This document shows, piece by piece, positions 1,180 through 60,613 of a stretch of 64,000 bases of DNA. Below the pieces are notes generated by a model. That model was not told the origin of the DNA. It was given only the letters and a program-made list of their open reading frames with translations, and ran no database searches. A program made the position numbers and the translations under genes. This DNA is from Mobula hypostoma (lineage: Eukaryota): contig NC_086097.1 of the NCBI RefSeq assembly GCF_963921235.1, positions 166,596,001 through 166,660,000 on the forward strand. The letters are read 5' to 3'. Positions within the stretch are counted from its first letter, which is position 1. Each line of letters begins with the position of its first letter.

Positions 1180-1359
1180 ATGAGGGTCTGCGGAAGGAGT
1201 GGTGGATTGGTCGTGGTGGAGCGCTTGGTGTTTGCCGCCGACGCCGGGGACTCCGACCCATGCTCCAGGGCGGTGTTGTTCGCAGGACAGCTGCCAAATC
1301 TGCACAAACTTGCCTGGAACCAAGTGAAGGGGAAGCTGGAGCCCCGGGTGACCCAGGAG
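1180..1359 (+). CDS. NPEPL1: NPEPL1-like M17 aminopeptidase, coding exon 1 (start codon inferred)
   Basis: MRVCGRSGGLVVVERLVFAADAGDSDPCSRAVLFAGQLPNLHKLAWNQVKGKLEPRVTQE resembles the NPEPL1 N-terminus (AGDSDP..R...GQL..LH...W..V.GKL.PRVT.E); ATG in gcggcgATG context; donor GAG|GTAGCG. Confidence 0.85.
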
Positions 1360-3569
1360 GTAGCGAGAAAGCAAGAGGTCCAAGATGGGGCCAGATGTTC
1401 AGGCTATTCAGCCCTTCTGGCTCTCTGTTGACCCGGCACCTATACTTAGGTGGCAGTGGCCCAGGGCTAAAGAGAGTGGAGTTGCTTGAAGCATGTTCTG
1501 ATGCTCAGTTTGCACCTTGATTTTTAAATTATTACTCTTCATGCTTCCCCCTGCCTCCCACTTATATATCTGTAGTCCCTTGCTCTTAACGTCCTACTCA
1601 TCTCTGAATTTTACTGCTGCACCATAGGTGACTGCACCTTTGATGGGAAAACGTAAACTCTAAAACTCTTACGTTAAAAGCATTGTGCCTGATCTTGTGT
1701 CTACCTACTTTGTGTTTTGGTGCCAATGTTTTCGTTCTCACTATCACTAGTAATGACAGTGTTTATTGTCCCTCATCTGTGGAGGCACATTATTGTGTTT
1801 AGAGTTAGTCCAGGTAAAGGATTGCACATTTCCTTCCCTGAAGGGCCTTACTGCTGCTGAAACCAGTTACAATGAAATATTTAATTGCACTTGTACTACT
1901 GGCATCCATTCCTTCTAGAACTGACTTTATAGACACAGGTAGATTCATTGCTAATTATTTATTTCTTTGAACAGAAGAACCTGGTTTGACCATCACTTGT
2001 TTTTTCTCCACTGTAATTTTTCCTTTCTTCCCCTGACCCAACCATCATGTTATCTGTCAATGGTCAGACCCTATCAAAGGCAGTCCATTCATAATCTGAA
2101 AAAGTTGTCAGTTCAGACACAACCATGGAGCAGGACGCAGTTAGCATTTCAAGGTAATGATGTTTCAGATGAACAGAACTTTCTGATGAAAGGTCATAGA
2201 TCTGATCATTTTCAATTAGGGTCATTTGTTTTGCAGTTAGTGACCCCTGACCTGATGAGTACTCTGGCATTAATTTTAGATTTCCAGAATCTGCAGGTAT
2301 TTTTTGACTGTACATCACTTCTACTATTTGTGCACACCAGAATGTTGATTTACAGTATTAAGACAAATGGAATACTACTTTTAAATTACCCTTTTGATGT
2401 ACAATGTTAGATAATTGCTATCAGAACAATTCAGTATTAATGATGTTTAGATTATATGTAAAATCCATTTTTGCAGATTTCTTGTCCCTACCTACATCTA
2501 TTTAAAAACCTTGCCATTTTGCTCATGTAGTTTTTTTTTAGCATTTAGGACATTGGCTGTTGTATTTTATAGATCAGTGTTAATTCCAAACAGCACAAAG
2601 TTTTTACTGTCTTCCATGAATGCTTAAAAGTTATATCTTCAAAAGATAAATATAGAACAAAAGCAAATACTGTGGATGTTGGAAATCAGTAATAACAAAC
2701 AGAAAATAGCAGAAGAATTGTGGAGAGCAGAGAAATTAAAATGTTGAACATTTTCTGCCAAATGCCATGTTCTCTCCGGTCTTTAGCCAGAGTGTGGTGA
2801 ATCTGTTTTGTTGCCACAGGCAGCTGCGAAGGCCAAAGTCATTGGGTATATTTAAGGCAGCAGTTGATAGGTTCTTGATTGGTCAGGGCATGAAGGGAGA
2901 CTGAGGAGATTGAGGCTGAGGGAAAATAGATCAGCCATAATGAAATGGTGGAGCAGACTTGATGGGCCAAGTGGCCTAATTCTGCTACTGTATTTTGCCA
3001 TCTTATGCTGCCTGACCGAACAAGTATCTCCCAGCAATTTCTATTTTTATTTCAGAGCAGAATATGGGCCACAGTAGGAAGATGGATGGAAGAGGCCAGG
3101 GAGAATAGTTTATGTAAATACTTTGAATTCTCTTCTCCAGAGAATGTAAATGTTTTGTATCTGATTATGTCCTTGTACCTTATTGTCTGCCTGCACTGCA
3201 CTTTCTCTGTAACTTAATTCTACATTCCTACTTGGGATTGAAGGGAAACTAACCTGTGGGAGTTGAGATTATTGCTCTGCTTTTGCCATTGGCATTACTG
3301 CTACCATCATCCTCCACTGGTGTGGTGCCAATGAGTGAAGCAACATATTTTCAGAAATGAATCCTCTTCTGTGCAATACATCATGTAGTTCGTTTACTTG
3401 GATAACAAGAGAGAAACAACATTTATTTAGAGTACCTTTGGTCTGGTTATTCTTAGCCCAAAAACATTCTGATTTAAGTTTAACATAAAATTTCAAATAA
3501 AACCCATATTTATGTGCTTAATGAGATCAATGATTGCAATTGATTCATTATGAAATCTCTTGCTCAGAC

Positions 3570-4520
3570 TGTATCTCTTCCATGATCTCCATCAGCATAG
3601 GTGCATCACAAGGCTGTGTGCTTTGCCCCCTACTCTACTCAATTTATGCTTATGATTGTGTGGCTAAGCACAGATCTAAGGCCATATTCAACTTTGCTGA
3701 TGTCACCACTGTCGTAGGTTGAATTAATAGTGGACAAATCAGCATATAGGAAAGAGATTGAAAATCTGTATGAATGGTGCCATAGCAACGACCTCTTACT
3801 CAATATTAGCAAGACCAAGGAGCTTTTATTGACTTCAGGAGGAGAAAAGCAGAAGTCCATGATCCTATCCTCGGAGGATCAGAGATAGAGATGGTCAGCA
3901 CCTTTAAGTTTCTCTGCGTTATTATTTCGGAGGACCTGTCTTGGGCCCAGCACATAAGTGCCTCTTACTTCCTTAGGAGTTTGCAAAGATTTGGCATGAC
4001 AGCCAAAACTTTGACAAACTTAAATAGATGTGTGGTGGAGAGTATATTGACTGGCTGCATTACAGCCTGGTATGGATATACCAATGCCCTTGAATGGAAA
4101 GCCCTTCAAAACTAGGGGATACAACCTAGTCCATCATGAGTAAAGCCCTCTTCATCATTGAGCACATCTACATGAAACATTGCTGCAGGAAAGCAGGGAT
4201 CCCCACCATGCAGGATATGCTCTGATTTTGCTGCTGCCATCGAGAAGGTATGGGAGCGTCAGGTCACACCACCGGGTTCAGGAACAGTTATTTCTCTTCA
4301 ACCACCAAAGGGGATAATTTCATAATTTCATTCAACTTTACTTGCCCCATCATTGAAATGTTCCCACAACCTCTGGACTCATTTTCAAGGACTCTTCATC
4401 TCATGTTATCAATAGTTATTTATTATTATTACTTATTTTTGTGTTCACACACTGGTTGAACACCCAAATTGGTATGATCTTTCTTTGATTCTATTATGGT
4501 AATTATTCTATTAAAGATTT
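3570..4520 (+). mobile_element. Degraded Rex1/Babar-like LINE 3' fragment
   Basis: Broken frames GASQGCVLCPLLYSIYAYDC..FADVTTVVG and FKFL.V.ISEDLSW..YFLR.L..ESILTGCITAWYG. Confidence 0.8.
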
Positions 4521-4567
4521 ATTGACTATGCCCGCATATTCAGGGTTGTATATGGTGATGCGCGTGT

Positions 4568-4569
4568 AT

Positions 4570-4631
<62 letters not shown>
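4568..4631. repeat. (CA)n/(CATA) compound microsatellite
   Basis: Direct reading; about 90 bp upstream of the exon 2 acceptor. Confidence 0.95.
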
Positions 4632-4719
4632 GCTGAGTTTGCTAAGTTTAGATATAATTGTAATTCTCCTCTGTGTAGAGCCAAATAAGCCCTGGAATAA
4701 TGCTCAGTTTGTTGTTCAG

Positions 4720-4905
4720 GTCTGGCAGACAGCACTGAGAACTTTGAATCCAAATCCTACAGCTACTTGCTCTCTTTGGCTCAATTATGCTCTAGTGGCA
4801 GCACTCCGGTCCAAAGTCAGTCGTCACAACAGTCCATCTTCAGCTCACTTTCTCACACGATTGATTAGTAGTTCCTTGACTCGAAGAACCAACCAGTGCA
4901 TTGTG
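4720..4905 (+). CDS. NPEPL1: NPEPL1-like exon 2
   Basis: ttcag|...|gtgagt; 186 bp; VWQTALRTLNPNPTATCSLWLNYALVAALRSKVSRHNSPSSAHFLTRLISSSLTRRTNQCIV. Confidence 0.93.
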
Positions 4906-6912: not shown

Positions 6913-7083
6913 TTGGTCTGTGAATATGCAGAGGTTTTTGCCTTAGCATGTGCACTAACAAGAGCGTTTCCTTTGTTCACTCGACGCACTGGAATGCATG
7001 AACATGAAGACAAGATCACTGTTACTGTAGAGTTTATTCTAGTGGGAGAAAATACCAAGCCACTCTGTGAATCTGCACTTGAA
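6913..7083 (+). CDS. NPEPL1: NPEPL1-like exon 3
   Basis: tttcag|...|gtaagt; 171 bp; LVCEYAEVFALACALTRAFPLFTRRT...VTVEFILVG...ESALE. Confidence 0.93.
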
Positions 7084-7164
7084 GTAAGTAATAGCACAAT
7101 GGTAGGAGCTACAAAATGATGTAGTTGCTGATTTAAGATTAGCTTTCTTTGTTACATCAAAACC

Positions 7165-8354: not shown

Positions 8355-8444
8355 TGTTTGTTAAATGCTGCTGAAGGCATCCGATTAGCAGCTCGTATTG
8401 TGGATATGCCATGCTGTGAGATGAATACCGATGACTTCCTTGAG
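8355..8444 (+). CDS. NPEPL1: NPEPL1-like exon 4
   Basis: catag|...|gtgagc; 90 bp; CLLNAAEGIRLAARIVDMPCCEMNTDDFLE. Confidence 0.93.
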
Positions 8445-12448: not shown

Positions 12449-12469
12449 TGTGCATAATGTGCATGTCTA

Positions 12470-29280: not shown

Positions 29281-29362
29281 GAAATCAACCTTGTTGGATC
29301 TGAACTGGGTATTATTCCCACAATTATCCGTGGGGAGGAACTAAATCACAAGGGATTTGGAG
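29281..29362 (+). CDS. NPEPL1: NPEPL1-like exon 5
   Basis: aatag|...|gtaata; 82 bp; EINLVGSELGIIPTIIRGEELNHKGFG(G). Confidence 0.92.
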
Positions 29363-31877: not shown

Positions 31878-32020
31878 GCATTTATGGAGTTGGAAAAGCT
31901 GCAGTGAACCCTCCTGCTCTTGCAATACTTAGTCATACACCAGAGGATGCTACGCAAACTATAGCCTGGGTCGGCAAGGGTATCGTTTATGATACCGGTG
32001 GTCTCAGCATTAAATCAAAG
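31878..32020 (+). CDS. NPEPL1: NPEPL1-like exon 6 (metal-binding GKG..YD motif, catalytic Lys)
   Basis: ttcag|...|gtgatg; 143 bp, phase matches exon 5; IYGVGKAAVNPPALAILSHTPEDATQTIAWVGKGIVYDTGGLSIKSK. Confidence 0.95.
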
Positions 32021-33813: not shown

Positions 33814-33891
33814 TCACAGATGACAGGGATGAAGAGAGATTGTGGAGGAGCTGCTGCTGTCCTTGGAGCCTTCCGAGCAGCAGTGAAACAG
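33814..33891 (+). CDS. NPEPL1: NPEPL1-like exon 7
   Basis: tgtag|...|gtaggc; 78 bp; SQMTGMKRDCGGAAAVLGAFRAAVKQ (M17 MKxDxxG motif). Confidence 0.95.
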
Positions 33892-36161: not shown

Positions 36162-37157
36162 GCAGCTTCACCTGTGGTACTTTGTTAAAGACCTTCTGAA
36201 AATCCGTGTGCACAAGGCCCTTCGATTCTCCTTTGTCTATCCTGCTTGCTATTTCCTCAAAGAATTCCAGCATATTTTTTACCATGCTCATGGTCTGTTC
36301 TTTATCAAATTACGGTATTCCTTTGCACTGTTGTAACTATACGTTATAATTATGTGGTTTTTGTCAGTTTTTCAGTCGGTTTGTCATGTGTTTCTGTGAT
36401 GTCATTCTGGAGAAATGTATCATTTCTTAATGCACGCATTATTAAATGACAATAAAAGAGGACTACGTGTCCTCATAATCTAATCTAATATTTGTCAGAC
36501 AAGATTTTCCTTTAAGTTAACCATGTCAACTTTTGCCTATTTTGTCATGTAGTCAAAGTACCTTGAAACTACGTACTCAACAGTCGACTCCAACATCTTC
36601 TCAACCACTGAGGTCAGGCTAACTGGCCTACAATTTCCTTTCTTCTGCTCCCCTCCCTTCTTGAAAAGTGGCATGACATTTGCAATTTTCCAGTCATCTG
36701 GAACCTGCCAGAATCTAGTGATTCTTGAAAGATCATTACTAATGTCTCCACAATCTCTTCAGCTACCTCTTTCAGAACCCTGGGGTGTGATCGATCTGAT
36801 CCAGGTGACTTATTTACCTTCAGCCCTTGCAGCTCCCCAAAAACCTTTTCCTTAATAACAGCAACTGCACTCTCCTCTGCCCCCCTCGAACTTCTGGCAT
36901 ACTGCCGGTGTCATCCACTGTGAAGACTGAGGCAAAATGAGGTAAAATACTTATTCAGTTTGTCCGCCATTTCCTTGTCCCCAATTACTGCATCTCCAAT
37001 GTTATTTTGCAACAGCCTGATATCTATTCTCACATCTCTTTTATTCTTGATTTATCTGAAAAACTGTTTGGTATCCTCTTGATATTATTGGCTAGCTTAC
37101 CATCATATTTCATCTTTTCCCCTATTATGGCCTTTTTAGTTGCCTTTTGTTAGTTTT

Positions 37158-44672: not shown

Positions 44673-44976
44673 TATGCCTTATGGTCAGTCTTTGTATGTG
44701 TTTATAATTAAATTACTCCACATTTTGTTGTCCAAATAATACTCTGTTTATCTCTGGACTAAGCATTTTTTAAATCATATGACATATTTGTTTTAGTTAA
44801 TTTGCTGTGCTGTTTATGGAACACCTAATTAGGTGACACATTTAATGAAAAAATAGTTATCAGTGTCTTTATTTAGTGCAAAGTAGTTGGAACTGAATTC
44901 TTGCTTTACAGAAGAATCCACTTTAAAATGCTGTGCTCAAGGATATTGCTACAATATCTCTATTTTGTTTAACTAG

Positions 44977-45077
44977 GGTTTTAAAGAAAACTTGCATGCA
45001 TTGTTCTGCTTGGCTGAGAATGCAGTAGGAGCTGAAGCCACAAGACCTGATGACATTCACCAACTGTATTCTGGAAA
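44977..45077 (+). CDS. NPEPL1: NPEPL1-like exon 8
   Basis: actag|...|gtgagt; 101 bp; GFKENLHALFCLAENAVGAEATRPDDIHQLYSG(K). Confidence 0.95.
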
Positions 45078-45494
45078 GTGAGTTAGTGGATGTCTGCTGC
45101 TACATTTTTGGTCTTCCAGTATCTTGGTGTACTATGTATGAGCAAAATGCAGAATATAAACAAATAGGACGGAGACAATTTGTTGCAACTTTAGAAGGTC
45201 AATAGATGCATTTTGTTCTCCAAGTACCTTTGAGCAGAAATTAGGATTTGACTGTAATGTCATTTGTAGTACTTGGGTTGTATGTTCAGCCTGGATAATT
45301 TTCTCTGATTTTCTCTTAGCAATTTATCATGGTACATTTTTTAGAGGCCAGGAATACTTTATAAATCCTAATTTTACTGATGATTGCAGATTCATACACT
45401 GAATGGGTTATAAAACAAAAAAATGTTGCTTCAATTTTTTGCAAATCAGATCTGATTGTGTTTTACTTTTAAAAAAAACACATTTACTCAATAG

Positions 45495-45618
45495 AACTGT
45501 TGAGATCAATAACACAGATGCAGAAGGTTCTCTGGTTTTGGCTGATGGAGTATCCTATGCGTGTAAAGATCTCAAAGCAGACATCATAGTAGATATTGCA
45601 ACTTCAGCTGGAGCTCAG
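45495..45618 (+). CDS. NPEPL1: NPEPL1-like exon 9 (NTDAEG signature)
   Basis: aatag|...|gtaagt; 124 bp, phase matches exon 8; [41 protein letters not shown]. Confidence 0.95.
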
Positions 45619-46750
45619 GTAAGTGAATGTTTCTATGTTTCTGTTTTGATTTTACTCTTAATTTACATTGCCTCCAGTGGTCAATGAATATTAGTGTCAA
45701 AGAATGCACTTTTTTTATTGGCAGCAGTTAGAATCCATTGACCATCCACATGAAAACAGCATGTACAGTTATTAAGTCATAGAGCTGTAACTCATGGAAG
45801 TTAGCCCTTTGGCTCAAATGGGAAAACAAGATGCTCATTAAAGCTAATCCCATTTGACTGCATTTGGCTTGTATCCACCTTCCTATCCATGCTCCAATCT
45901 AAGTGTCTTAAATGTTGTTAACATACTTGCTTCAACCATTTCGTCCAGCAACTCATTCCATATACAGACCATTTTCTGGGTGAAAAAGTTGGCTTTCAGG
46001 ATAATATTAAATCTCTCCCTTCTCACCTTAAATTATGCCGTTTAATTTTGATTTCTCAACCCTGGGAGAAAAAGACTGTGTTTTCACTATGTCCCTCATG
46101 ACTTTTATTGAGTTCTAATTTATAATGACACTTTGTGGATAATGGAATTCTGGTTAATAGTCTAATTAATAAAATTGTTAAATTTTAATGTTGCATACCA
46201 GAGAGAAGAATGGTTATTCTGCAGATCTAACTATCAAATGAACCTAAGTGGACCTAAAATGCTAAGATTTTATCACTTGTAAAAGTTGGCCTTTGCAATT
46301 CTTCTGCAAAGTAGATGTACCCCCATTGGCTATCCTGCTCTGACCTTGTATTGTACTTGCCAAGAAAAGTAGTAGAATCTTCTTCCTGATGATGGCTTCC
46401 TGTTGTCCACCAGATGCTGCAGCACTAACAAGGAATATTCCCTGAACATTTTGAGAATTCCAAGTGAATATTTTACCAGTGCTCTGCACCATGATAGAAT
46501 GTGTCTCAGTGCATTTGTCGTCCTATTTTATGCAAGCAAATACATCTGTGCCCGGTTCACAATGATCACTTTTCACTAGTTCAGTGTGCTATTTTCAGAC
46601 CCTGACTTGTGTGATCATAGATGATGACCTCATTTTTATTTATTATACTTTTAGAATTAGCTCTCTTGTAATATGTGTAATTGAAGAATAGATTTTGGTA
46701 TATTTAAATAGCAGATCTTTGTATAAACTTTTCATATGAACTTTAACTAG

Positions 46751-46927
46751 GGTATTGTGACTGGGAAGTACCATGGTGGATTGCTTACCAATAATGAGGA
46801 GTGGGAACAGGCCTGTGTTAAAGCCGGACAAAACAGTGGAGATCTTGTGCACCCATTGGTTTACTGCCCAGAACTCCACTTCAGTGAATTTACTTCAACT
46901 GTGGCAGATATGAAAAATTTTGCGTCT
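46751..46927 (+). CDS. NPEPL1: NPEPL1-like exon 10
   Basis: actag|...|gtaagt; 177 bp; GIVTGKYHGGLLTNNEEWEQACVKAGQNSGDLVHPLVYCPELHFSEFTSTVADMKNFAS. Confidence 0.95.
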
Positions 46928-49161
46928 GTAAGTTAGTTGTCTATCTTGGCTATTCTGTTAGAGTTATTTAACTCTCTAAATTAGGCTGATGCTGTGTAAG
47001 AAGTGTTTTTTCTCTCAAAATGTAATCTACTGGCGAGATGTTAAAATCAAAAATACAAGAGATATTGCAGATGCTGGAAATCCAGAGCAACACACACAGA
47101 ATGCTGGAGAAACTCAGCAGAGCAGGCATCATCCTTGGAAATGAATAAACAGTTGACATTTTGGGCTGAGACCCTTCCTCGGGTGTTAAGATCAAATTGA
47201 CTGTCCAGTCATCTCGATTTAAATAACATTTCAATCCTAAATTTAAACAGCCTGTAACTTAGTTGGGTTAAATTGTTCTCAGATCTTTGCAATTTACTTG
47301 CAAACATCTTGCCACAATGTGAGGAGACATTGTCACTGTGCTGTAAAACTTAATTTACAAATGGGTATAGTCAGTGAAGATTTTGAAGCAACTTACTATG
47401 CGGAGGTAACAATAAGTTAACTAGGAAATAGAATTTTTTCATTCTGTAAATATTTTCTGTGTTTTTCCTTTAATCTCGCAACGATTTATACGGTGATATG
47501 TCCACAATAATTTCTTTGACACTACAACTTCCTGTGTCCATCTTTTTCATATCTCCAATTGCATTTCCAAACAACAGACAAAACTCATTTTAATTACAAT
47601 ATTTGTTACCTATTAATGAAAAAAATTCTTCCTCTCAGTCTGGAGTAAACCTGCAGCTGATCTTCATGTCCCTCTGCATCACTTAATGTGCAAAATATTA
47701 AAGATTCCAGGGATAATGGAATAGGAATAGGTTATTCAGCCCATTGTTTGCTTTGCCATCCAATTGTCTTTGATCTTTTACCTGAATGCACAAGCCCCAC
47801 ATTTTAACATCACTGGTATAGTTGGTGTAATATTGATAACAAAAAAAAATTAATGGCATCTTAATTCATGCTCCTGGTATGATTCTGCCTTGCCCACCAT
47901 CCCATCTTTGTACCATTCAATGACTTTCTTAATTGATTCTTGAGTTTCTACCTTTATTACTGTAAGTGGAATTTCAAATCTTGATCATCTTTTTGTGTGG
48001 AGAATATCCTGATAATTGACCTAAAGTTAAGGTTTACCATTATGAATCTTTTTCTCTGTCCTGTTCTATACTGAGTTTTATGTAAAGCATTTTAATACAT
48101 TGCCTTTATACAGTCTATAATATATTATGGATTGGTGTTGTCAATGGCTGTATAGAAAGTGAAGGGATTAAGAATGGAATATTACTTATGCTAATGCCAC
48201 TATAAAAGTTCAAGTTGTTTAAATAGGTTTTGAGAAAGTTCTGAAGATGTTTATAATAGTGATGGAAGTGAGTTTTGGAGAATAAGGTTACACAGTAATT
48301 TCTAAAGGGTGGAAGTTTGTATTAGGAATGGAGGATAAGCTGTAATTAAATTCAGGAACAGAAATCTTGTTACAGAGACAAAAAATGATTTTCTGAAGGT
48401 TGTGATGTGAGATTATGGGGAGATTTAAAAATGAAGTTGAGTGTTTTTGGACACGAGACTCTGCGGATGCTGGAATTCCAAAGCATCTCACACAAAATGC
48501 TGGAGGACACTACTGGAGACAACATTACAAGAATTTTGCATGTGTACAGCACTTTCTTGTGGCATAGACATGGCAATAAATTTGTCCTTGTTTGGGGTGT
48601 ACTTTCATCCTGAGAACAAATAAATGTCCCAAAAAGGACCCAGTGCTTTCCCAGCTTTCAACCAGGTATAGGTATTGATTATAACCGATGTTTTGATGAC
48701 AAGCTCTGGGTTGTCATAAAAATGAAAGTGCTTTCTTTCAACAGCTTCCATAGTTTTTCTGTATTTCATGGCTATCTCGAGAAGACCAATATCAGAGTTG
48801 TATTGTACATGCATACTTTGACTATAAAGTGAATTGTTGAACCTTTTTTTAAAATCCTGCTGGGCTTTCTCGGGTCAGCTGGCCATCTCTCAGCCAGCCA
48901 GTTACATGGCACCTCTCTGTTCCTGACTAAAATGCATATTAACTTGCATTCACTGGGGATCAACTAAAACTTTGTTATAAAATGATTAATTTGAGCTCAA
49001 TGTTATGACGATACTAGATTGTATTAGCTGTGGTTTTTGAATTTAAAAATATATTTAATTCAGAAATATATACATTAATGGTTTACAAACAGATATCCAT
49101 TTGCATGTTGACTGTGCAGTGTCTGGCAGGGAACAATTTTAATGTAGTTGTGTCATTGTAG

Positions 49162-49272
49162 GATCATGCCAGTGCTCTGAGCTCGTGTACAGGCTTGTTT
49201 ATTGAAGCACATATTGGCTTTGATTGGCCAGGAGTATGGGTGCACATTGACATGGCTTCTCGAGTTCATTCT
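49162..49272 (+). CDS. NPEPL1: NPEPL1-like exon 11
   Basis: tgtag|...|gtaagt; 111 bp; DHASALSSCTGLFIEAHIGFDWPGVWVHIDMASRVHS. Confidence 0.94.
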
Positions 49273-50122
49273 GTAAGTAAAGTTTTCTGTAACATTTGAT
49301 TCTCAGTAGAAAGGTTAATTTATTGCATGCATTATTTAAGTTTGGATGTCCATACCGCAGGATATATGTTAGCATGGCAAACCAATTTGTTTAATCCACA
49401 TACAGTTTTCAAAAGCAACAGGATCTGGTCAGTTATTTGTTTAGAAGTTTAATATGGTGCATATATGTTCCTAGTTGATTCTTTTCATCCTATAACTGCA
49501 ATTATATTTATCATCTACTCTCCAATTCGTTTTAATTTATTTCTCTGTTCTGCTTACAAGCAATATATTTTGCATTTGGGCAGAAGAGAGGATGACTAAT
49601 GATGAGTCAGAAAAAACAATGGCTCTGGGAATGTTCAGTAGGAGTTGGATTTGAGCATGAGCCTTGGGAAAACCTAGGGCAGAAGTGTTCTGAGAGTAGT
49701 CGATTACCATTGTACTGCGTGAAAGTGAGTTACCTTACACATTTGGGACGCGCAGAATTCCAACAAAGCTTTGGAAATGAGTTTTCTTTTGACATACCAT
49801 ATAGTGATATTTCAGCATTGTGAATGACTTGTTCTTTTAAGATTCTGATTAACTTGGGTTATAATGTATCACAATTTTGAACTAATTATAACTTAAAGCT
49901 TTAGAGAATATTTGATAAGTAGAATGTTTAAAAACTTTGTTTTACAAACACATAATTGTAAGAAACTGCCTCTTTATACAAAGGGTTATTTCTAGCATGA
50001 TGCTTTTGGGAATGTCCCATAGTGCATGTGATAAGTTCCATTGTATGTACATGATTATTACAATTTGAGTATACAAGAAGATGTGTAAGCTGAGAAACTA
50101 ATGGTTATACTTTCTCCATCAG

Positions 50123-50284
50123 GGAGCTCGGGCTACAGGCTATGGGGTAGCACTACTTTTAGCATTGTTTGGTCATGCAACAGATAATGTATTGTTGAAC
50201 ATCATTTCACCAAATGGTGTTAGCTTTACCACAGAAGTTGGTAATTCGATGGAAAATTGCTTCAAAAAGAGAAGACTGATATGA
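50123..50284 (+). CDS. NPEPL1: NPEPL1-like exon 12 (terminal, stop TGA)
   Basis: atcag|GARATGYGVALLLALFGHATDNVLLNIISPNG...CFKKRRLI*; summed CDS 1605 bp = 534 aa + stop, frame open across all 12 exons. Confidence 0.94.
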   Translation, partial: GARATGYGVALLLALFGHATDNVLLNIISPNGVSFTTEVGNSMENCFKKRRLI

Positions 50285-50637
50285 ATCCTGATTGCAATTG
50301 TGTTCATTTTCTGCTTTATGGAATTGAAAGTATTCATTTCCTGATCCTGTAAGAAATTTTGCATTAGTATTTGGGAGCATACAGTAATTATTTTTCACTG
50401 CTATTCCTTAATGCTGGTGACTTGTCAAATAGAACACACAGCTTTGCTAATGATTTAATCCCATTACTTTTTGCATGGAGACTTGCAGAGATTGGAGTTG
50501 TATTTATTGCAGATTAAGAGTTTTTATTTCTATGAATGTAAGTTGAGCTATAATGTTTGGAGGTCACATACTTATACAATGAATCAAATTCTCTTATGTA
50601 TAGTGATTAGCCTTAGTACTATCTCTTAGCAGCTTAA

Positions 50638-50643
50638 AATAAA
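50638..50643 (+). terminator. Candidate polyadenylation signal of the NPEPL1-like gene
   Basis: First AATAAA I found after the stop codon, followed by T-rich sequence; another lies at 51911-51916. Confidence 0.45.
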
Positions 50644-53600
50644 ACTGTTAAGATTTTTTAAAGCAGGTTTAAAACATTTTTGTATATTTTCATGTATTTG
50701 AATAAGATGTGCATAAAACATTGTATAATTTTCAAAGTTGTCCTGTTGCTTCTATTTAACCCATCGTTGCATTTCTTATCCTTTGGTTTTCTTTTAGATT
50801 ATGTATTTGTGCTAATGTGGTGACTATCACTAGAGTGCAAAATTAGCAGCCCTCCAATGCTAATGTGCTAAAGTTACTTCTTCATTGATTTCCTCTTGTT
50901 ACTCCAGTTTAATATTCTGATGACAACAGGGCTAACTTCAAACACTTTACAAATAAGTGGTTAAAATTCTAATACACATAAGACTCATAGCCTCAGGTGT
51001 TTCACATTTGTGCAGGAGAAGGTAGGTACCCTGGTTTGTCCCCCGTAACCCTGTGCTAGGAAGATTGGCCCGACTTGCCTTTGGGTGGAACTGGAGGAAG
51101 GGTTTTATTGCCATAGTTGACCCAATTAAGTCAAGGGAAATAATTAGCAACATGGTAAATTATTTCCAAACTCCTTCAGCATTGAACATTTACTTTTATA
51201 AATGTGGAGATTCTTGCTTTAGTTTCATTTGTAATACAGCTACACTGTTATTTTCTTCATTCCCTCAATCGTTTTCAGTATTATTATCTACATATGATTC
51301 TTACATTGAATTAAATTGTTATGATTTACCCTTCATATCAGTGAGAATTTTACAGTGTAATTGAGGAGGTATGCCATTGCTGGTTCTCTTCATATAAGTT
51401 CCAAATTCTGTGTTATTGATGTCATTGTTCTGTTGCTTGAATTACTATAAAAAAGTAGCATGAATGGTGAGGGACTATAAGCATAAGTGCACTAAAAACA
51501 AACAGGTCTGTATCAACGAATTGCAATATTGGAGATAATTTGGATGAATTCACATTTATCAAAATTAAATGATTTTTATATACTTGACCTACCCCATTTC
51601 TAACCTGGTGCTTATTGACCCCTACTTTAGTTCCAAAAACACTTGCCTCTGTTTATACTTTACAAAATCTTCTGGTGAGCGAATACCCAGTTTTCATGAA
51701 ATTTTATTGAAAATGTCAATCACTGTGAGATGTTTTAGAAACAAATATAAAACAGGGACATATTTTCACTGGTAACTATTGACAGTAGAGCCACAATTGT
51801 CTGGGTCTGGTAGACAGCATCAGGTTAAGGAAAAAAAAAGAGCAATCCAACTAGAAGCAAAGCTTATTGCATATTTTCTAAAACTAATTTCAGTATTCCA
51901 GAAGTTCATGAATAAACTTGAAATATAAATACACCTTAACACTCTACTATTGAAATCCATAAGGTAATGTTATCCTTTGTCATACAAAACTTAGTTGCAC
52001 CAACTATTATTGTTCATTTTCAGTTTTGACTTAAAATCATCCACTGTAATACACATAGTATGGTGAGTTGGATCATGGACTTAGCCTATCTATATTGTTG
52101 AAAATAGCCAATTCCTTCCAATAAATATAGTCAAGCTACTTGTAGAATGGGAAAAAAACATTGCTTTTCATTTGATTTTCTAAGCAACCAGAACTTTGAA
52201 AGATGAGAAATCAGTAAAACAGCTGTATCTGGAAAAAAAAATTGACTCTTGAATGCTATTTTCATCTTCAAACAAATTTATAAAGTGATCTTAAAAACAG
52301 TTTCTAAAACTATTATTGCAAGATTAAAGGGTTTTGAAGGCTAACTTGGATTTTTGTTTGGTTTTAAGACAATAACCCTTAATGTTGTTTGAAACTTACG
52401 GTAGCCCTGTGTTAGTTTTCTAAGTTATAGGTCAATTATTTAGCACATTTTCTTACATGGAAATCAGTGCTGTGATTGCCAAACTTCTATCTGGATCTCT
52501 ATGAGACAGACATAAGCAAAGACAAATTGCATTATTAACCTGACGATTAAATCTTCACCAACTGGATTTGTTTGTGCAACCAAGTTACAGGAATATTTGG
52601 TGAGTTACCTTCGGTAGGAAAACTGCCAAAGAGGAAGTTGAGTTTCAATCCTTGCTTTACATTAACAATACAAATGTGTAATAGTTGTCAGAAACCAATA
52701 ACTGACATGAAAATAGTTGGCCACATTGGTAATGAGCCAGTGCTACCTTTAAGAAGCATGGCAAATTACACACACAATTCCTTCTTGGTTGCAGTAACCT
52801 TTGCTGTAATTGCCTGTTTTTAAAAGAGTTTTCTCACTTTGGGTCTGTGCTTGTGCTATAATTCTACTCATCAATAATATAATCCTTAGAAATACACCAT
52901 TATTTCTAAACCAAAACAGTGTTATTAATCTTGAACATGTTTGCATTCAGATAAGTAGATTAAAATTAAATCTTAAGATACATGTATATTTTGCCCTTTT
53001 CAGGGTTTTAGTTACCTTGAAAATTGTAGCAATAACAATTTGCATGTGGAAATATGCAGAGAAAAGTCAAACTTTAAGCCAAGTAAATCTTCTATCCAAA
53101 AGTCAGGCAGTCTATTTTTCAGAATATTATGCAATATGAATGGTTACATAATATCCTTTTATATTGACTCCAGTTATTATTCATTCTAATACTGTGACAC
53201 AAGATAAATCCACTTTACTGTGCCAGAGTGAAAGCACGTGAATGTGCCCATCAAACCCCTATAAGCAAGTTCCTGATACTGGTTAGGCTGTCATGGGTAA
53301 TATCCATTAGAAGAGGCCACATGGTTCCCAGTAAGAAAATCAGCAAATTATCACCTTGGAATATATCACCATATATTCCAATAATTGGTTGAAGATGGAT
53401 CATCATAACAGTTGGAAACACATCACTCAGGTTCTAACCAGACAAATGGAATAGGTGAAAAGGAGATGGAAATGAAACAGTTATGGTTGGAGTCTTCCTA
53501 TCAAAATAATTGATGACACTGTGGGCTCATTAAGAAAAAAGTTATGTTAGCTTCAGTTTAATCAAAGAGAAAAGCTATTGAAAGATTTGCCTTTCAGAGG

Positions 53601-54356
53601 TTCAAGTAAATTCTGAACGTTTTGGTGACTTCTGGTTTCAAGTACTTTTGTGAGTACCACAGGAGCCTTTATCTAGGAGAAGTATGTTTTGAAGCATTAA
53701 TGTAAACCCACTTTGTTTTTTTTATAAGATATTGAAGATACAGAAGACAGATAAGCCTTTGATAAAATAACTCTTCCTGAGAAAGCTCACTGATAAGGTG
53801 ATACTTTTCTATTGCCTGTACAAATAAGTCATGTAAAATAAATTGTTAAATTATTTCCCTCGCTTAAGCTCGTCAGTAAATTCATTCATCAGTGGAGACC
53901 TGTGATGTCCTTAATCTTTGATGATGTCTTCTTTCATTGGCCATTATAGAATCACTCCAGGTCTTCTTCCCCGAAAACTGGGTGGTATTGACATGAAGTT
54001 GTGTCGCTCAAAAATCATAAAGAAAATTCAAAGGATTGATACAGATGATATCTGCAAGGAAGGTTAGCATTTCGGAAGCCCTGATTTTGGCTATCTGAAA
54101 GTGAAAAGAAACTGGATTCAGCTACTATCTGGAATCAACTCCATAACCAGGGCTGAATGGTGGCACAAACACCAGTCTTACACTGTCAGCAGAGGGAGAC
54201 TGTAGGCAGAGAGGACTTGAGAAACGTACAACTGCCTGGGCTCCAGAAGGAAAAGCTCCTATCACCTAACTGTGAATAACTCAGCTTTTCTGTGATATTG
54301 TGCTTTTTTTTTAAAATCTCCAAATTAGAATTTTACATCCAGATCAGTAAGATTGG

Positions 54357-54609
54357 TCACTTCGTCTTTTCGCGTGTCCATTTGATCATAGTTTCTGGTG
54401 ATCTATATAAGAAGATGAGCTTAGCATACAGATCCTCCTCCAGTTCTAACTCTCCAGTCTCTCGAACCAGGAAGATATCTGTGCATAGCTTCAAGATTCG
54501 GTCCACGTTTGGTAGCTCCTCAAACATGATGGAGTGAGAGATCCCACTGAAGAACTCGCGCACAAACTTTCCAATGACTAGCACAACTGATGCATAGAGA
54601 CCCATAATG
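54357..54609 (-). CDS. PIEZO2: PIEZO2 mechanosensitive channel, terminal coding exon (inner helix + C-terminal domain)
   Basis: ttttcag|C then IMGLYASVVLVIGKFVREFFSGISHSIMFEELPNVDRILKLCTDIFLVRETGELELEEDLYAKLIFLYRSPETMIKWTREKTK*; essentially the PIEZO2 C-terminus as I recall it. Confidence 0.92.
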
Positions 54610-55599
54610 CTGAAAAACAATGAAAACCATTAGAATACATCAGGAAATTCAGATTTATTCTTTAAAATTGGGGATGAAAAGTGGAGCTTCCAAGTTTAAG
54701 TTATACATGGCTTCCTAAATCTGCAACATAGTGATGGAGAATGCATGCTCATTATGAGCTATATCCCATAATAATAATCTATGTCTGAAACGAGGTTCTC
54801 TGGTCTAGTTCCATTGTATATGCAAACAGGTATGCAAATATTTCATCAATGCTTTAAACATAATATTGTTCCCCTTCACCTACCCGCAGTGGTAGCCACC
54901 ACAACTTACACTTAGTGAAGACCTGGCATATAACATGCCAAGTTCTTCAACTGATGTGCTGTCACTTGCATCCAATCAAACTGTATTACTGGTGTAGATG
55001 AAGGAATCCAATGTGTTACTGTTAAATTTAGTGGCAGTACACAGAGGTAGAAAAATGAGCTGGGAATTGCTAAGTTTGCTAAGGGATATAGTTGCATTAA
55101 CTGTATAAAATTTAGCTGATGCTGCGTAATGTGAGATTTCCATTTTGATAAAAACACTAGAAAACCAGCAAATTATTTAAATACAGATGGAACATAGTAC
55201 TTTACTGTACCAAACAATCTGGGTGTTATTGTACATAAAACATAGAAGCATGTAGGTGCAGCAAAAGATTACGAAAGCAAATGGAATATTGTCATTTAGT
55301 CCAAGATGGTTTGAGTTTAATAAGTACAGGGTGTCAATGAGATCACATCTGGAGTGCAGTGAACAATAATACTCTCCTTATTTAAAGAGGAATATCCTTG
55401 GGTAGTTCAAAGAAGGTTAACCAGGATGTTTCACATCAAGGAACTGTCTAATGAAAACATATTAAACAAAAAATATTGGACCAATGTTTATGGATGTTTA
55501 GAAGAATGAGAAGTGAACTTTTTGAAAATTTATAATATTCTAAGTAGATTGCCTGACAGTATCTGGCAATAGCAAAATGTACTCTTGTTTCTTCTCTGT

Positions 55600-56365: not shown

Positions 56366-59300
56366 ACATTCGCTTGCATGACATTCTCAAGTGGGAGGGT
56401 GATCAGCCAGATGTCGTGGTGCACATCGGTACCAATGACATAGCAAGGAAGAGTGAAGAGGTCCTGGACAGTGAGTATAGAGAGCTTGGTAGGAAGTTGA
56501 AAAGCAGGACCTCGAGGGTGGTAATCTCAGGATTGCTACCTGTGCCACATGCCAGTAAGGGTAGGAATAGGATGCTCTGGAGGAGGAACAAGTGGCTGAG
56601 GAACTGGTGTAGGGGGCAGGGTTTCAGATTTCAGGATCATTGGGACCTCTTCTGGAGCAGGTGGGACCTGTACAAGAGAGACGGGTTACACTTGAACCAC
56701 AAGGGGACCAATATCCTTTCAGGGAGGTTTGTTAGTGCTATTGGGGAGGCTTTAAACTAGATTTGCAGGGGGATGGGAACCAGAGTGCCAGAGCTGACAG
56801 TGTGGCTGGGGTGAAAATAAATGATGTTGAAAGTTTAAACAAATCCACTGATAGAAAGGTTGTGAGTGGTGGTAAAAATCTTCTGAGGTGTATATATTTC
56901 AATGCTAGGAGTATTGCGGGGAAGGCGGACGAGTTGAGTGCGTGGATTGACACGTGGAATTATGACATTATAGCAATTAGTGAAACTAGGCTACAGGAGG
57001 GACAGGACTGGCAGCTTAATATTCCAGGGTTCCGATGTTTCAGATGTGATCGAGGCAGAGGAATGAAAGGTGGGGGGGTAGCATTGCTTGTCAGGAAAAA
57101 TGTTACAGCAGTGCTCAGGCAGGACAGATTAGAGGGCTTGTCTACTGAGTCCTTACGGGTGGAGCTGAGGAAAAGGAAAGGTATGGCCACGTTAGTGGGG
57201 TTGTATTATAGACCACCCAATAGTCAGCGAGAATTGGAGGAGCAAATCAGCAGAGAGATAGCAGGCAACTGCAGGAAACATAAAGTTGTGGTGGTAGGGG
57301 ATTTTAATTTTCCATATATTGATTGGGACTCCCATACTGTTAGGGGTCTAGATGGTTTAGAGTTTGTAAAATATGTTCAGGAAAGTTTTCTAAATCAATA
57401 TATAGAGGTACCAACTAGGGGGGATGCAATATTGAATCTCCTGTTAGGAAGCGAGTTAGGACAAGTGACAGAAGTGTGTGTAGGGGAACACTTTGGTTCC
57501 AGTGATCGTAACAGCATTAGTTTCAACTTGATCATGGAGAAGGATAGATCTGGTCTTAGGGTTGAGGTTCTGAACTGGAAGAAGGCCAAATTTGAAGAAA
57601 TGAGAAAGGATCTAAAAAGCGTGGATTGGGACAGGTTGCTGTCTGGCAAGGATGTGATCGGTAAGTGGGAAGCCTTCAAAGAAGAAATTTTGAGAGTGCA
57701 GAGCTTGTATGTTCTTGTCAGGATTAAAGGCAAAGTGAATAGGAATAAGGAACCTTGGTTCTCAAGGGATATTGCAACTCTGATAAAGAAGAAGAGAAAG
57801 TTGTATGATATGTATAGGAAACGGAGTAAATAAGGTGCTTGAGTATAAAAAGTGCAAGAAAGTACTTAAGAAATAAATCAGGAGGGCTAAAAGAAGACAT
57901 GAGGTTGCCTTGGCAGTCAAAGTGAAGGATAATCCAAAGAGCATTTACAGGTATATTAAGAGTAAAAGAATTGTAAGGGATAAAATTGGTCCTCTTGAAG
58001 ATCAGAGTGGTCGGCTATGTGCAGAACTAAAAGAAATGGGGGAGATCTTAAATGGGTTTTTTGCGTCTGTATTTACTAAGGAAACTTATGAAGTCTATGG
58101 AATTAAGGGAAACAAGTAGTGAGATCATGGAAACTGTACAGGTCGAAAAGGAGGAGGTGCTTGCTATCTTGAGGCAAATTAAAGTGGATAAATCCTCAGG
58201 ACCTGACAGGGTGTTCCCTCGGACCTTGAAGGAGACAAGTGTTGAAATTGCAGAAGTCCTGGCAGATATATTTTAAATGTCGCTGTCTACGGGTGAGGTG
58301 CCGGAGGATTGGAGAGTGGCTCATGTTGTTCCGTTGTTTAAAAAAGGATCGAAAAGTAATCCGGGAAATTATAGGCCGGTAAATTTGACGTCGGTAGTGG
58401 GTAAGTTATTGGAGGGAGTACTAAGAGACAGAATCTACAAGCATTTGGATAGACAGGGACTCATTAGGGAGAGTCAACATGGCTTTGTGTGTGGTAGGTC
58501 ATGTTTGACCAATCTATTGGAGTTTTTCAAGGAGGTTACCAGGAAAGTGGATGAAGGGAAGGCAGTGGATGTTGTCTACATGGACTTCAGTAAGGCCTTT
58601 GACAAGGTCCCGCATGGGAGGTTAGTTAGGAAAATTCAGTTGCTAGGTGTACATGGAGAGGTGGTAAATTGGATTAGACATTGGCTCAATGGAAGAAGCC
58701 AAAGAGTAGTAGTAGAGAATTGCTTCTCAGAGTGGAGGCCTGTTACTAGTGGCGTGCCACAAGGATCAGTGCTGGATCCATTGTTATTTGTCATCTATAT
58801 CAATGATCTAGATGATAATTGTGGTAAATTGGATCAGCAAATTTGCTGATGATACTAAAATTGGAGGTGTAGTGGACAATGAGGAAGGTTTTCAGAGCCT
58901 GCAGAGGGACTTGGACCAGCTGGAAAAATTGGCTAAAAAATGGCAGATGGAGTTTAATACAGACAAGTGTAAGGTATTGCACTTCAGAAGGACAAACCAA
59001 GGTAGAACATACAGGGTGAATGGTAAGGCACTGAGGAGTGCAGTAGAACAGAGGGATCTGGGAATACAGATACAAAATTCCCTAAGAGTGGCGTCACAGG
59101 TAGATAGGGTCGTAAAGAGAGCTTTCGGTACATTGTCCTTTATTAATCAAAGTATTGAGTATAAGAGCTGGAATGTTATGATGAGGTTGTATAAGGCATT
59201 GGTGAGGCTGAATCTGGAGTATTATGTTCAGTTTTGGTCACCAAATTACAGGAAGGATATTAATAAGGTTGAAAGAGTGCAGAGAAGGTTTATGAGGATG

Positions 59301-59766
59301 TTGCCGGGACTAGAGAAACTCAGTTACAGAGAAGGGTTGAATAGGTTAGGACATTATTCCTTGGAGCGTAGAAGAATGAGGGGAGATTTGATAGAGGTAT
59401 GTAAAATTATGATGGGTATAGATAGAGTGAATGCAAGCAGGCTTTTTCCACTGAGGCAAGGGGAGAAAAAAAAACAGAGGACGTGGATTAAGGGTGAGGG
59501 GGGAAAAATTTAAAGGGAACATTAGGGGGGGCTTCCTCACACAGAGAGTGGTGGGAGTATGGAATGAGCTGCCAGACGAGGTGGTAAATGTGGGTTCTTT
59601 TTTAACATTTAAGAATAAGTTGGACAGATAAATGGATGGGAGGTGTATGGAGGGATATGGTCCGTGTGCATGTCAGTGGGACTACGCAGAAAATGGTTCG
59701 ACACAGCCAAGAAGGGCCAAAAGGCCTATTTCTGTGCTGTAGTTTTTCTATAGTTTTCTATGGTTT
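56366..59766 (+). mobile_element. CR1 LINE with ORF1 C-terminus (SGNH esterase-like) and full-length but disrupted ORF2 (APE + RT), in the last PIEZO2 intron
   Basis: ORF1 VVVHIGTNDI...DGLHLN; ORF2 [42 protein letters not shown]; several stops and frameshifts; tail ttttctatagttttctatggtttc. Confidence 0.93.
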
Positions 59767-60420
59767 CAGAGGGAGGTGATGGGCAGGTAAGGAGAGAAGG
59801 TATGAGAGGGAAGCAGAAATAGTGAGGGAGTGGGGCAATAATAAGAAGTTTGAGAAATCAATCCCTCCCTCTGGTGCTCCTCCCCCTTCCCTTCCCTTCC
59901 ATGGTCTTCTGTCCTCTCCTTTCAGATTGCTTATCTTTTATCAGAATTTATTGCCTCTGCAACGTGGATCTTTGTTTTCACATTAAATCCACCTTACACT
60001 GAAATGGCAAAGAACTTTAAGACCTGTCTTAGAGTTCATTCTGAGTGCAGGGTAATCTTAGAAACATTCATGTGCAATTAAGGCATCCAATATTTTAATT
60101 GGTTCAAAAGCTGTACTGGTGAGATGATCTTGGAAACCTGCAATAATCCAAGTATCAAAGTGGAGGAAAGTGCAAACTTCCTCTATCATTTTATACACCA
60201 GTAGAGTAATAACGATGTGTGTAAGAATTTATGAAAAAAACAATTACAATATTTAAAAGACATTTGGACAGATATATGGAGATAGGAAAGGTTTAGAGGA
60301 ATATATGCCAAATACAGGAAGGCACTTTGGTTGGCATGGACTAATTGGGCCATAGGGCCCGTTTCTGTACTGTATAACTCTAATGTAAAGTAAATCAAAG
60401 AATTGAATTTGTTGTCTTAC

Positions 60421-60613
60421 CCATAGCCAGCCAGGAAGCCAAGACTTGGAGGACTAACTTTATCACTGAATACAATAATTTCTAAACTTTCCTTTTTATC
60501 ATTTTTGAGAAACTTGTTGGTCTGATTAACAATCCACCATTCCTGTATGAGTCCTGTAACATTGCTTTTTTCCTGAACCAGCATTAAATTAAGTTCACAG
60601 TAGTCATCACCAT
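60421..60613 (-). CDS. PIEZO2: PIEZO2 penultimate coding exon (end of cap domain)
   Basis: ccaacag|...GG|gtaaga; 193 bp; ...QEWWIVNQT...SLEIIVFSDKVSPPSLGFLAGYG; split codon GG|C joins the terminal exon in frame. Confidence 0.92.

What the first reader, a model, noticed from the sequence alone, without database searches (positions are those of the whole stretch)
1180..60613. NPEPL1-like gene tail-to-tail with PIEZO2: possible retained whole-genome-duplication ohnolog lost in mammals
Seen: a divergent NPEPL1-like gene ends about 4 kb from the stop of a PIEZO whose terminal exon is PIEZO2-type. From memory (verify): human NPEPL1 lies in the STX16-GNAS region with a PIEZO pseudogene (PIEZO1P2, the Piezo3 locus) nearby, whereas human PIEZO2 lies between NAPG and GNAL with no NPEPL1 paralog. 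Inference: either this is a second NPEPL gene kept on the PIEZO2/GNAL paralogon, which fits its divergence, or it is true NPEPL1 beside an unusually PIEZO2-like PIEZO3.
Basis: inference. Interest (0 to 1): 0.72.

Follow-up and report, generated by a model that had tools for sequence, protein, structure and literature searches.

The report
Second NPEPL1 gene beside ray PIEZO2
A devil-ray genome holds an intact, spliced second copy of the peptidase gene NPEPL1 next to the touch-channel gene PIEZO2; it is likely a leftover of the early vertebrate genome doublings, kept by sharks, rays, sturgeon, bichir, bowfin and coelacanth and likely lost in tetrapods and teleosts, and in these rays it lacks a conserved catalytic arginine, which would likely weaken the enzyme.

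Summary
The window holds a 12-exon, 534-aa M17 aminopeptidase gene (+, 1180-50284) that ends 4,072 bp from the stop of a true PIEZO2 (-). The protein is 100% identical to a Mobula hypostoma RefSeq protein. That species also has a canonical NPEPL1 (71% identical), on another chromosome-length contig, with an accession next to PIEZO3's. Trees split jawed-vertebrate NPEPL1 into clade A (canonical, 99/97) and clade B (window, 99/91). Both clades are on record in 21 species: elasmobranchs, sturgeon, bichir, bowfin and coelacanth. A shark-only duplication is rejected (AU p=0.0004). In bowfin, B has accessions consecutive with PIEZO2. No tetrapod or teleost B was listed, so the loss is likely wider than mammals. 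1R versus 2R is unresolved. B evolves faster than A in 9 of 9 species pairs. In four stingray/devil-ray species the catalytic Arg356 is Ser; two of them also lose a metal ligand. Spliced contigs carry the Ser. Verdict: a real, apparently unnamed ohnolog of a well-known kind, with a testable hint of enzymatic decay. Modest interest.

The parts
1180..1359 (+). NPEPL paralog B, exon 1 (ATG), in a CpG-rich stretch
4720..4905 (+). exon 2
6913..7083 (+). exon 3
8355..8444 (+). exon 4
29281..29362 (+). exon 5 (after a 20.8-kb intron)
31878..32020 (+). exon 6; K270, D275 and K282 of the M17 active site, all intact
33814..33891 (+). exon 7; metal ligand D293 intact here (Gly in Hypanus and Hemitrygon)
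44977..45077 (+). exon 8
   Evidence: joint 45077-45495 in 4 of 4 runs
45495..45618 (+). exon 9; D352 and E354 intact; catalytic Arg356 is Ser; Leu381-Thr382 are Ser-Ala
   Evidence: spliced contigs of X2 and X4 show 0 other letters over this exon
46751..46927 (+). exon 10
49162..49272 (+). exon 11
50123..50284 (+). exon 12, coding part with stop
50285..51586 (+). likely 3' UTR of the NPEPL paralog; AATAAA at 50638 and ATTAAA at 51564 are candidate poly(A) signals
   Evidence: spliced contigs run to 50661/50664 (X9, X1), 50712 (X4) and 51046 (X2); a separate X2 contig covers 51078-51586; signals; contig ends are only a weak hint
51687..54356 (-). likely 3' UTR of PIEZO2; AATAAA on the minus strand at 51703
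   Evidence: X4 contig covers 51687-54610 and goes on beyond the exon; signal
54357..54609 (-). PIEZO2 terminal coding exon with stop
60421..60613 (-). PIEZO2 penultimate exon (cap domain)
   Evidence: PF12166
63114..63193 (-). PIEZO2 third-last exon

Best explanation
The gene is an intact, spliced second NPEPL1 paralog (clade B) lying tail-to-tail with true PIEZO2, likely an ohnolog made when an ancestral NPEPL-PIEZO-GNAS/GNAL block was doubled in an early vertebrate whole-genome duplication. Shown: two jawed-vertebrate clades; A shares its contig with PIEZO3, and B sits with PIEZO2 in this ray and in bowfin; B evolves faster than A. Inferred: the doubling was 2R (about 60%), 1R (about 30%) or a large segmental event (about 10%). 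Inferred: later losses were reciprocal, so that humans kept NPEPL1 and a PIEZO3 pseudogene on 20q13, and PIEZO2 without clade B on 18p11. Predicted function: a cytosolic two-metal M17 aminopeptidase that trims N-terminal residues. In devil rays all five metal ligands and the catalytic Lys remain, but Arg356, Leu381 and Thr382 are replaced, so it most likely folds and binds metal with reduced or altered activity. The stingray copies, which also lack Asp293, are likely near-inactive.
For: Gene model identical to M. hypostoma XP_062915378.1, 534 of 534, on a 256.4-Mb contig. The same species' canonical NPEPL1 XP_062897640.1 is on a 252.4-Mb contig, with accessions 638/639 being PIEZO3-type. IQ-TREE LG+C20, 49 rows: A 99/97, B 99/91, each with sharks and bony fishes. 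All chondrichthyan copies as one clade rejected, p-AU 0.0004. Both clades on record in 21 species; in the 20 with separate contig lengths, A and B lie on different contigs. PIEZO3-type shares the contig of A in 13 of 13 species where all three are listed, and that of B in 0 of 13 (one of the 13 rests on a 271-aa fragment). Amia ocellicauda B and PIEZO2 share one 63.57-Mb contig with neighbouring accessions; Amia calva MBN3310926/27 are consecutive on one 3.2-Mb contig. Published blocks: piezo2-napg-apcdd1 and gnas-piezo3-npepl1-...-apcdd1l-vapb-rab22a (PMC13228305). GNAS and GNAL come from the WGDs (PMC5896119). Human 18p11 OMIM order RAB31, VAPA, APCDD1, NAPG, PIEZO2, GNAL has no NPEPL (PMC8104293). 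Four introns joined in contigs of public runs. Active-site tally: 146 of 149 A intact at 11 positions, against 37 of 46 B.
Against: The best trees place lamprey NPEPL1 with clade A (97/88), which points to a split older than 2R; the 2R topology is only not rejected (p-AU 0.075). Adjacency of B and PIEZO2 is seen directly only in this window; in bowfin it rests on contig length and accession order, and no PIEZO2 record was fetched for the other B species. Only one full-length gnathostome PIEZO2 was in the PIEZO tree (93/84 with the window), and a clade of the window plus all PIEZO3 rows was not rejected (p-AU 0.08). The loss in tetrapods and teleosts rests on lists capped at 120 of 1393 and 120 of 7780 hits. 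The effect of the Arg is disputed: a 10-100-fold drop is expected in PMC3078892, while PMC10666288 says the E. coli PepA Arg mutation did not lower activity. 37 of 46 B records keep the full site, so clade B as a whole is not a pseudo-enzyme.
Confidence: 0.88

Rival explanations
1. The gene is the true, only NPEPL1 and its neighbour is an unusually PIEZO2-like PIEZO3.
For: NCBI names the protein 'probable aminopeptidase NPEPL1'. NPEPL1 next to a PIEZO is the published PIEZO3 arrangement. A clade of the window's PIEZO with all PIEZO3 rows was not rejected on 175 columns (p-AU 0.08).
Against: M. hypostoma has a separate canonical NPEPL1 and a separate PIEZO3 on another contig. The window's PIEZO is only 105 of 174 identical to that PIEZO3 and is rejected from the shark/ray PIEZO3 clade (p-AU 0.0001). 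The window protein is outside clade A.
Confidence: 0.01
2. The paralog is a later duplicate of NPEPL1 confined to cartilaginous fishes, which landed beside PIEZO2 by chance.
For: The elasmobranch B stem is long (0.18), so its position could be distorted.
Against: AU test rejects one chondrichthyan clade (p=0.0004). Sturgeon, bichir, bowfin and coelacanth share the B-diagnostic residues (6-7 of 7; the columns were chosen on a set that includes these species). Bowfin B is also linked to PIEZO2. The gene has 12 exons, so it is no retrocopy.
Confidence: 0.02
3. The A/B split comes from a pre-gnathostome segmental duplication of the block, or a local duplication older than vertebrates, not from a whole-genome duplication.
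For: Lamprey groups with A (97/88). The invertebrate outgroup is thin (5 rows; no named amphioxus, tunicate or hagfish NPEPL row).
Against: Many neighbours are paired between the two blocks (APCDD1/APCDD1L, VAPA/VAPB, RAB31/RAB22A, GNAL/GNAS, TUBB6/TUBB1, PRELID3A/PRELID3B; names, pairing from established knowledge). B lies on the larger and A on the smaller contig in 18 of 20 species, the large/small pattern described for 2R pairs (PMC8302630). All 44 vertebrate rows form one clade against the 5 invertebrate rows (100/98).
Confidence: 0.09
4. On function only: the ray copy is a decaying redundant gene on its way to loss, with no role of its own.
For: B is faster than A in 9 of 9 species pairs, and departs from A-invariant columns at 16-32 of about 285 sites, against 0-3 for A. 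Active-site changes appear in three separate elasmobranch lineages. B appears to be gone from tetrapods and teleosts.
Against: The frame and all splice sites are intact, spliced contigs exist, and Mobula and Hypanus B are still 95.3% identical. The Arg356, Leu381 and Thr382 changes are shared by all four myliobatiform species, so the gene has persisted since they arose.
Confidence: 0.3

Closest known systems
NPEPL1 (aminopeptidase-like 1, M17 family; clade A here)
   Same: Same two Pfam domains (PF00883, PF18295), about 70% identity, matching exon blocks by tblastn, a PIEZO gene as neighbour.
   Different: Separate clade, other chromosome, linked to PIEZO2 rather than PIEZO3, faster evolution, and in myliobatiform rays changed catalytic-site residues.
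PIEZO3/PIEZO2 paralogous blocks (PMC13228305; saw abstract, introduction, first results, passages, and a search of its one supplement)
   Same: The paper describes the two blocks and places npepl1 beside piezo3.
   Different: Its piezo2 block is piezo2-napg-apcdd1, with no npepl gene in the passages read. This finding adds the missing partner and shows that NPEPL-PIEZO adjacency predates the duplication.
Ohnologs kept only in slow-evolving fishes, such as Pdx2 (PMC2944030) and nanos1A/B (PMC5932020); search listing and start of abstract only
   Same: Same pattern: kept in cartilaginous fishes, coelacanth or basal ray-finned fishes, absent from mammals.
   Different: A housekeeping-type peptidase rather than a developmental regulator.
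Drosophila sperm leucyl aminopeptidases, S-LAPs (PMC3078892; passages)
   Same: M17 duplicates with substituted active-site residues; cluster II has a substitution at the same Arg.
   Different: S-LAPs are an expanded testis-specific family. Here there is one ancient duplicate, tissue unknown, and most clade-B members keep the full site.
C. elegans LAP1 (PDB 2hb6/2hc9)
   Same: Closest solved structure, E=2.6e-101 over residues 88-502.
   Different: It keeps the Arg and the Leu-Thr pair that the ray protein has replaced.

Membership tests
M17 leucyl aminopeptidase family | Peptidase_M17 catalytic domain plus N-terminal domain | tested here: met
   PF00883 303 bits (cut-off 25) and PF18295 83 bits (cut-off 27)
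M17 leucyl aminopeptidase family | Five metal ligands (Lys, Asp, Asp, Asp, Glu) | tested here: met
   K270, D275, D293, D352, E354 present; spacing +5, +23, +82, +84 equals that of the residues named in PMC3078892
M17 leucyl aminopeptidase family | Two catalytic residues (Lys and Arg) | tested here: not met
   K282 present; Arg356 is Ser in the window and in all four myliobatiform species. This lowers 'canonical active enzyme', not family descent.
M17 leucyl aminopeptidase family | Hexamer and aminopeptidase activity | not testable with these tools
   Needs purified protein
NPEPL1 orthologs (clade A) | Nests in the clade of mammalian NPEPL1 | tested here: not met
   0 of 7 A-diagnostic residues
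NPEPL1 orthologs (clade A) | Linked to PIEZO3/GNAS/STX16 | tested here: not met
   Neighbour is PIEZO2; PIEZO3 is on the contig of the other copy. STX16 and GNAS are outside the window and were not seen.
Vertebrate WGD ohnolog pair | Duplication predates the shark/bony-fish split and postdates invertebrate outgroups | tested here: met
   outgroup is only 5 rows, with no named invertebrate chordate
Vertebrate WGD ohnolog pair | Copies lie in paralogous blocks on different chromosomes | tested here: met
   Window, contig lengths and accessions plus papers; only the PIEZO neighbour was checked on sequence
Vertebrate WGD ohnolog pair | Round of origin: lamprey outside A+B for 2R | tested here: inconclusive
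   Lamprey with A 97/88; 2R tree not rejected, p-AU 0.075
PIEZO2 orthologs (the neighbour) | C-terminal region groups with PIEZO2 and not with the species' PIEZO3 or PIEZO1 | tested here: met
   82 of 82 terminal residues equal bowfin PIEZO2; tree 93/84; shark/ray PIEZO3 clade rejected; only 174 aa are in the window
M17 pseudo-peptidase (S-LAP-like) | Loss of metal ligands or of the essential Lys | tested here: not met
   Window copy keeps all of them; met only for single ligands in Hypanus, Hemitrygon, Heterodontus and Rhinoraja records

The most novel reading that the evidence does not exclude
Clade B is an ancient vertebrate ohnolog that has turned into a non-catalytic M17 protein several times in cartilaginous fishes (stingrays and devil rays: R356S, plus D293G in stingrays; horn shark: D275N, D293E, R356Q; a skate: K270M, E354D) while staying expressed and conserved. 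It would be a vertebrate counterpart of the Drosophila S-LAP pseudo-peptidases, acting as a structural or regulatory subunit, possibly in mixed hexamers with NPEPL1.
Probability: 0.25. Interest if true: 0.55.

Novelty: new member of a known kind. Interest (0 to 1): 0.38.

Why it matters
It exposes hidden paralogy: RefSeq names both copies 'probable aminopeptidase NPEPL1', so an NPEPL1 beside a PIEZO cannot be used to call PIEZO3 in sharks or basal fishes, and ortholog sets can mix the two. It adds one gene pair to the PIEZO2/PIEZO3 duplicated block, with a neat reciprocal loss in humans. It offers a natural series (intact shark B, Arg-less devil-ray B, Arg- and Asp-less stingray B) to test the disputed role of the M17 bicarbonate-binding Arg and how a duplicate enzyme decays or changes job. 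Retained ohnologs in cartilaginous fishes are common, so a specialist would not be very surprised.

Tried and rejected
The window's genome is not held, so there was no genome-wide tBLASTn and no view of flanking genes; contig lengths and accession order in public records were used instead. No listed sequencing run is on record as RNA; the four laid runs are 'RNA?' guesses, so only their spliced joints are used, and depth is not. Comparing exon and non-coding differences in run X9 to gauge selection was dropped: the organism is coded, counts are small and the 90% filter truncates them. The first PIEZO tree used a mis-framed first exon and was redone. The first NPEPL join had two wrong acceptors and was redone. 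PMC3281095 gave no residue numbers for the S1 pocket, so the pocket role of Leu381/Thr382 is recalled, not tested. The supplement of the ohnolog database paper holds no gene lists (0 hits); its web database could not be seen and may list this pair. Rfam found nothing in the window. No earlier scan finding matched. Structure and complex prediction were not run, since the fold is clear from sequence and a paralog pair would pass by likeness to known hexamers. Literature searches for a described second NPEPL1 (30 of 210, 25 of 661, 20 of 737 and 12 of 13 papers listed) showed none; for GNAL/GNAS paralogon papers gave 0 and 2.
Full report
Observation. tblastn with public NPEPL1 proteins finds 12 exons on the + strand. 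With splice sites fixed, all 11 introns are GT-AG and the 1605-nt frame gives 534 aa. The protein is identical at 534 of 534 residues to Mobula hypostoma XP_062915378.1, 99.8% to M. birostris and 95-96% to Hemitrygon and Hypanus, so the window is from a devil ray or a very close relative. Three PIEZO exons lie on the - strand (63114-63193, 60421-60613, 54357-54609). The two stops are 4,072 bp apart. The introns hold many LINE-type fragments.

Which PIEZO. The terminal exon equals mouse and human PIEZO2 in the PDB alignments and bowfin PIEZO2 at 82 of 82 residues. It matches 13 PIEZO3 rows at 69-74 of 82 and 3 PIEZO1-type rows at 68-74. A search with a turtle PIEZO3 region returned ray and shark PIEZO3 proteins (120 of 2103 hits listed). 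Over the 174 aa in the window, M. hypostoma PIEZO3 is only 105 of 174 identical. In the tree the window joins bowfin PIEZO2 (93/84), apart from a PIEZO3 clade (99/95). Forcing it into the shark/ray PIEZO3 clade is rejected (p-AU 0.0001); forcing it together with all PIEZO3 rows is not (p-AU 0.08). Only one full-length gnathostome PIEZO2 was in this tree. 'PIEZO3' is my label for the clade; NCBI names these proteins PIEZO2 or PIEZO2-like.

Which NPEPL. Two searches (120 of 1393 and 120 of 7780 hits listed) and two cluster look-ups gave 261 NPEPL-like records, 209 of them near full length. IQ-TREE (LG+C20+F+G4, 49 chosen rows, 523 columns) gives clade A (25 rows, 99/97), with mammals, amphibians, teleosts and sharks, and clade B (17 rows, 99/91), with the window, elasmobranchs, sturgeon, paddlefish, bichir, bowfin and coelacanth. 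A 69-row FastTree gave the same split. On 26 rows, one clade of all chondrichthyan copies is rejected (p-AU 0.0004). Seven diagnostic columns sort the 209 into 149 A, 46 B and 14 others, mostly lampreys and invertebrates.

Two copies per genome. Both clades are on record in 21 species: 17 elasmobranchs, Acipenser ruthenus, Erpetoichthys, Amia ocellicauda and Latimeria. In the 20 with separate contig lengths, A and B lie on different contigs, and B's is the larger in 18 (the two Scyliorhinus species are the exceptions). In 13 of 13 species with A, B and a PIEZO3-type record, PIEZO3 shares the contig length of A and never of B; one of these rests on a 271-aa fragment. In M. hypostoma, accessions XP_062897638/639 (PIEZO3-type) and 640 (NPEPL1 A) are consecutive on a 252.4-Mb contig, while the window's protein is on a 256.4-Mb contig. 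In bowfin, B and PIEZO2 share a 63.57-Mb contig with neighbouring accessions, and in A. calva they are consecutive on a 3.2-Mb contig. Accession order is indirect evidence of adjacency.

Origin. [quoted passage not shown] Human 18p11 OMIM lists run RAB31, VAPA, APCDD1, NAPG, PIEZO2, GNAL with no NPEPL (PMC8104293, passages), and the same neighbours are named on chicken chromosome 2 (PMC5043582, one passage). GNAS and GNAL arose in the vertebrate WGDs (PMC5896119, passages). 2R pairs typically gave one large and one small chromosome, and lampreys split after 1R (PMC8302630, passages). So a WGD origin is the simplest reading. The round is open: lamprey joins A (97/88), which suggests 1R but could come from B's faster rate, and the 2R tree is not rejected (p-AU 0.075). 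I put 2R at about 60%, 1R at 30% and a segmental event at 10%; these are judgements.

Loss. All 46 B records belong to elasmobranchs, acipenseriforms, polypterids, Amia or Latimeria, two of them unnamed members of such clusters. No B was listed for any tetrapod, teleost, gar or chimaera. Bony-fish B proteins outside the query profile scored 976-987 bits against a list floor of 898, so similar B proteins would likely have shown, but partial or very divergent ones could be missed. The loss is therefore likely and wider than mammals, but not proven. In humans the outcome looks reciprocal: 20q13 kept the peptidase and lost the channel, and 18p11 kept the channel and lost the peptidase (inference).

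Expression. Contigs of four public runs from three studies, none on record as RNA, were laid on 44900-55400. Joints match the predicted introns: 45077-45495, 45618-46751 and 49272-50123 in 4 of 4 runs, and 46927-49162 in 3 of 4 (the fourth has a nearby joint with 7 other letters). Two runs show no other letter across exon 9, so the Ser codon is in spliced sequence. Introns 1-7 were not tested this way. Spliced contigs of two studies stop at 50661 and 50664, just past AATAAA at 50638. A PIEZO2-side contig stops at 51687, just past a minus-strand AATAAA at 51703. These are weak hints that the 3' ends lie 0.1-1 kb apart.

Function. Both Mobula copies carry PF00883 and PF18295; the nearest solved structure is C. 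elegans LAP1 (E=2.6e-101). The seven M17 active-site residues named in PMC3078892 (passages) have the same spacing as K270, D275, K282, D293, D352, E354 and position 356 here. Position 356 is Ser, not Arg, and Leu381-Thr382 are Ser-Ala, in all four myliobatiform species. Hypanus and Hemitrygon also have D293G. Heterodontus B has D275N, D293E and R356Q, and Rhinoraja B has K270M and E354D, each from a single annotation. At 11 scored positions, 146 of 149 A records and 37 of 46 B records are intact; the three A exceptions were not checked and may be annotation faults. B is more divergent than A in 9 of 9 species pairs, for example Mobula-Hypanus 95.3% against 98.9%. The weight of the Arg is disputed: 10-100-fold lower activity is expected in PMC3078892, no loss is reported for the E. 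coli PepA mutant in PMC10666288 (passages). My reading: clade B is generally an active M17 aminopeptidase under relaxed constraint; the devil-ray copy likely has reduced or shifted activity (about 60%), and the stingray copies are likely near-inactive. None of this was assayed, and one search for NPEPL1 biochemistry listed no such paper (12 of 56 listed).

Novelty. Four searches listed no paper describing a second NPEPL1. The ohnolog database paper PMC13450315 (abstract, passages, supplement search) does not name it in text or supplement, but its web database was not seen and subscription journals are not covered. The proteins are already in RefSeq under the same name as the canonical gene. 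The class, ohnologs kept in slow-evolving fishes, is well known (Pdx2, nanos1; listings only). Verdict: real, new member of a known kind, interest 0.38.

Noticed in passing
window 50638-51703: Candidate poly(A) signals and contig ends put the 3' ends of the NPEPL paralog (about 50664, perhaps also 51586) and PIEZO2 (about 51687) within 0.1-1 kb of each other; PIEZO2's 3' UTR would be about 2.7 kb.
   Followed up: partly
window 35604-36165: 69-bp tandem repeat, 8.1 copies, 99% matches, inside intron 7 and amid LINE-like sequence; it gives the spurious ORFs at 35291-36199 and 35567-36184.
   Followed up: no
window 37565-39382 (-) and 56736-59513 (+): Young LINE fragments: a 605-aa reverse-transcriptase frame in NPEPL intron 7, and a broken endonuclease-plus-RT element in the last PIEZO2 intron. 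CR1/L2-type is a recalled label.
   Followed up: partly
window 47055-47180 and 48480-48510: A short, very abundant repeat (likely a SINE) in intron 10 draws contig depths of 8,000-58,000 in all four runs.
   Followed up: no
window 1-2000: CpG-rich stretch (observed/expected 0.7 against 0.13-0.4 elsewhere) around exon 1, consistent with a CpG-island promoter.
   Followed up: no
P0465-P0489, P0524-P0534: Several shark PIEZO3-type proteins (Cetorhinus, Carcharodon, Heptranchias, Mustelus, Hemitrygon) are named plain 'component 2' in NCBI, so PIEZO2 and PIEZO3 are mixed up by name.
   Followed up: partly
   Followed up: partly
P0008 (Heterodontus) and P0129/P0130 (Rhinoraja): Independent active-site substitutions in clade B of a horn shark and a skate; single annotations, not checked against reads.
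   Followed up: no
P0030, P0054, P0116, P0198, P0230, P0235: STX16-NPEPL1 fused records in lizard, mammals and a teleost fit the STX16 neighbour of canonical NPEPL1; none was seen for clade B.
   Followed up: no
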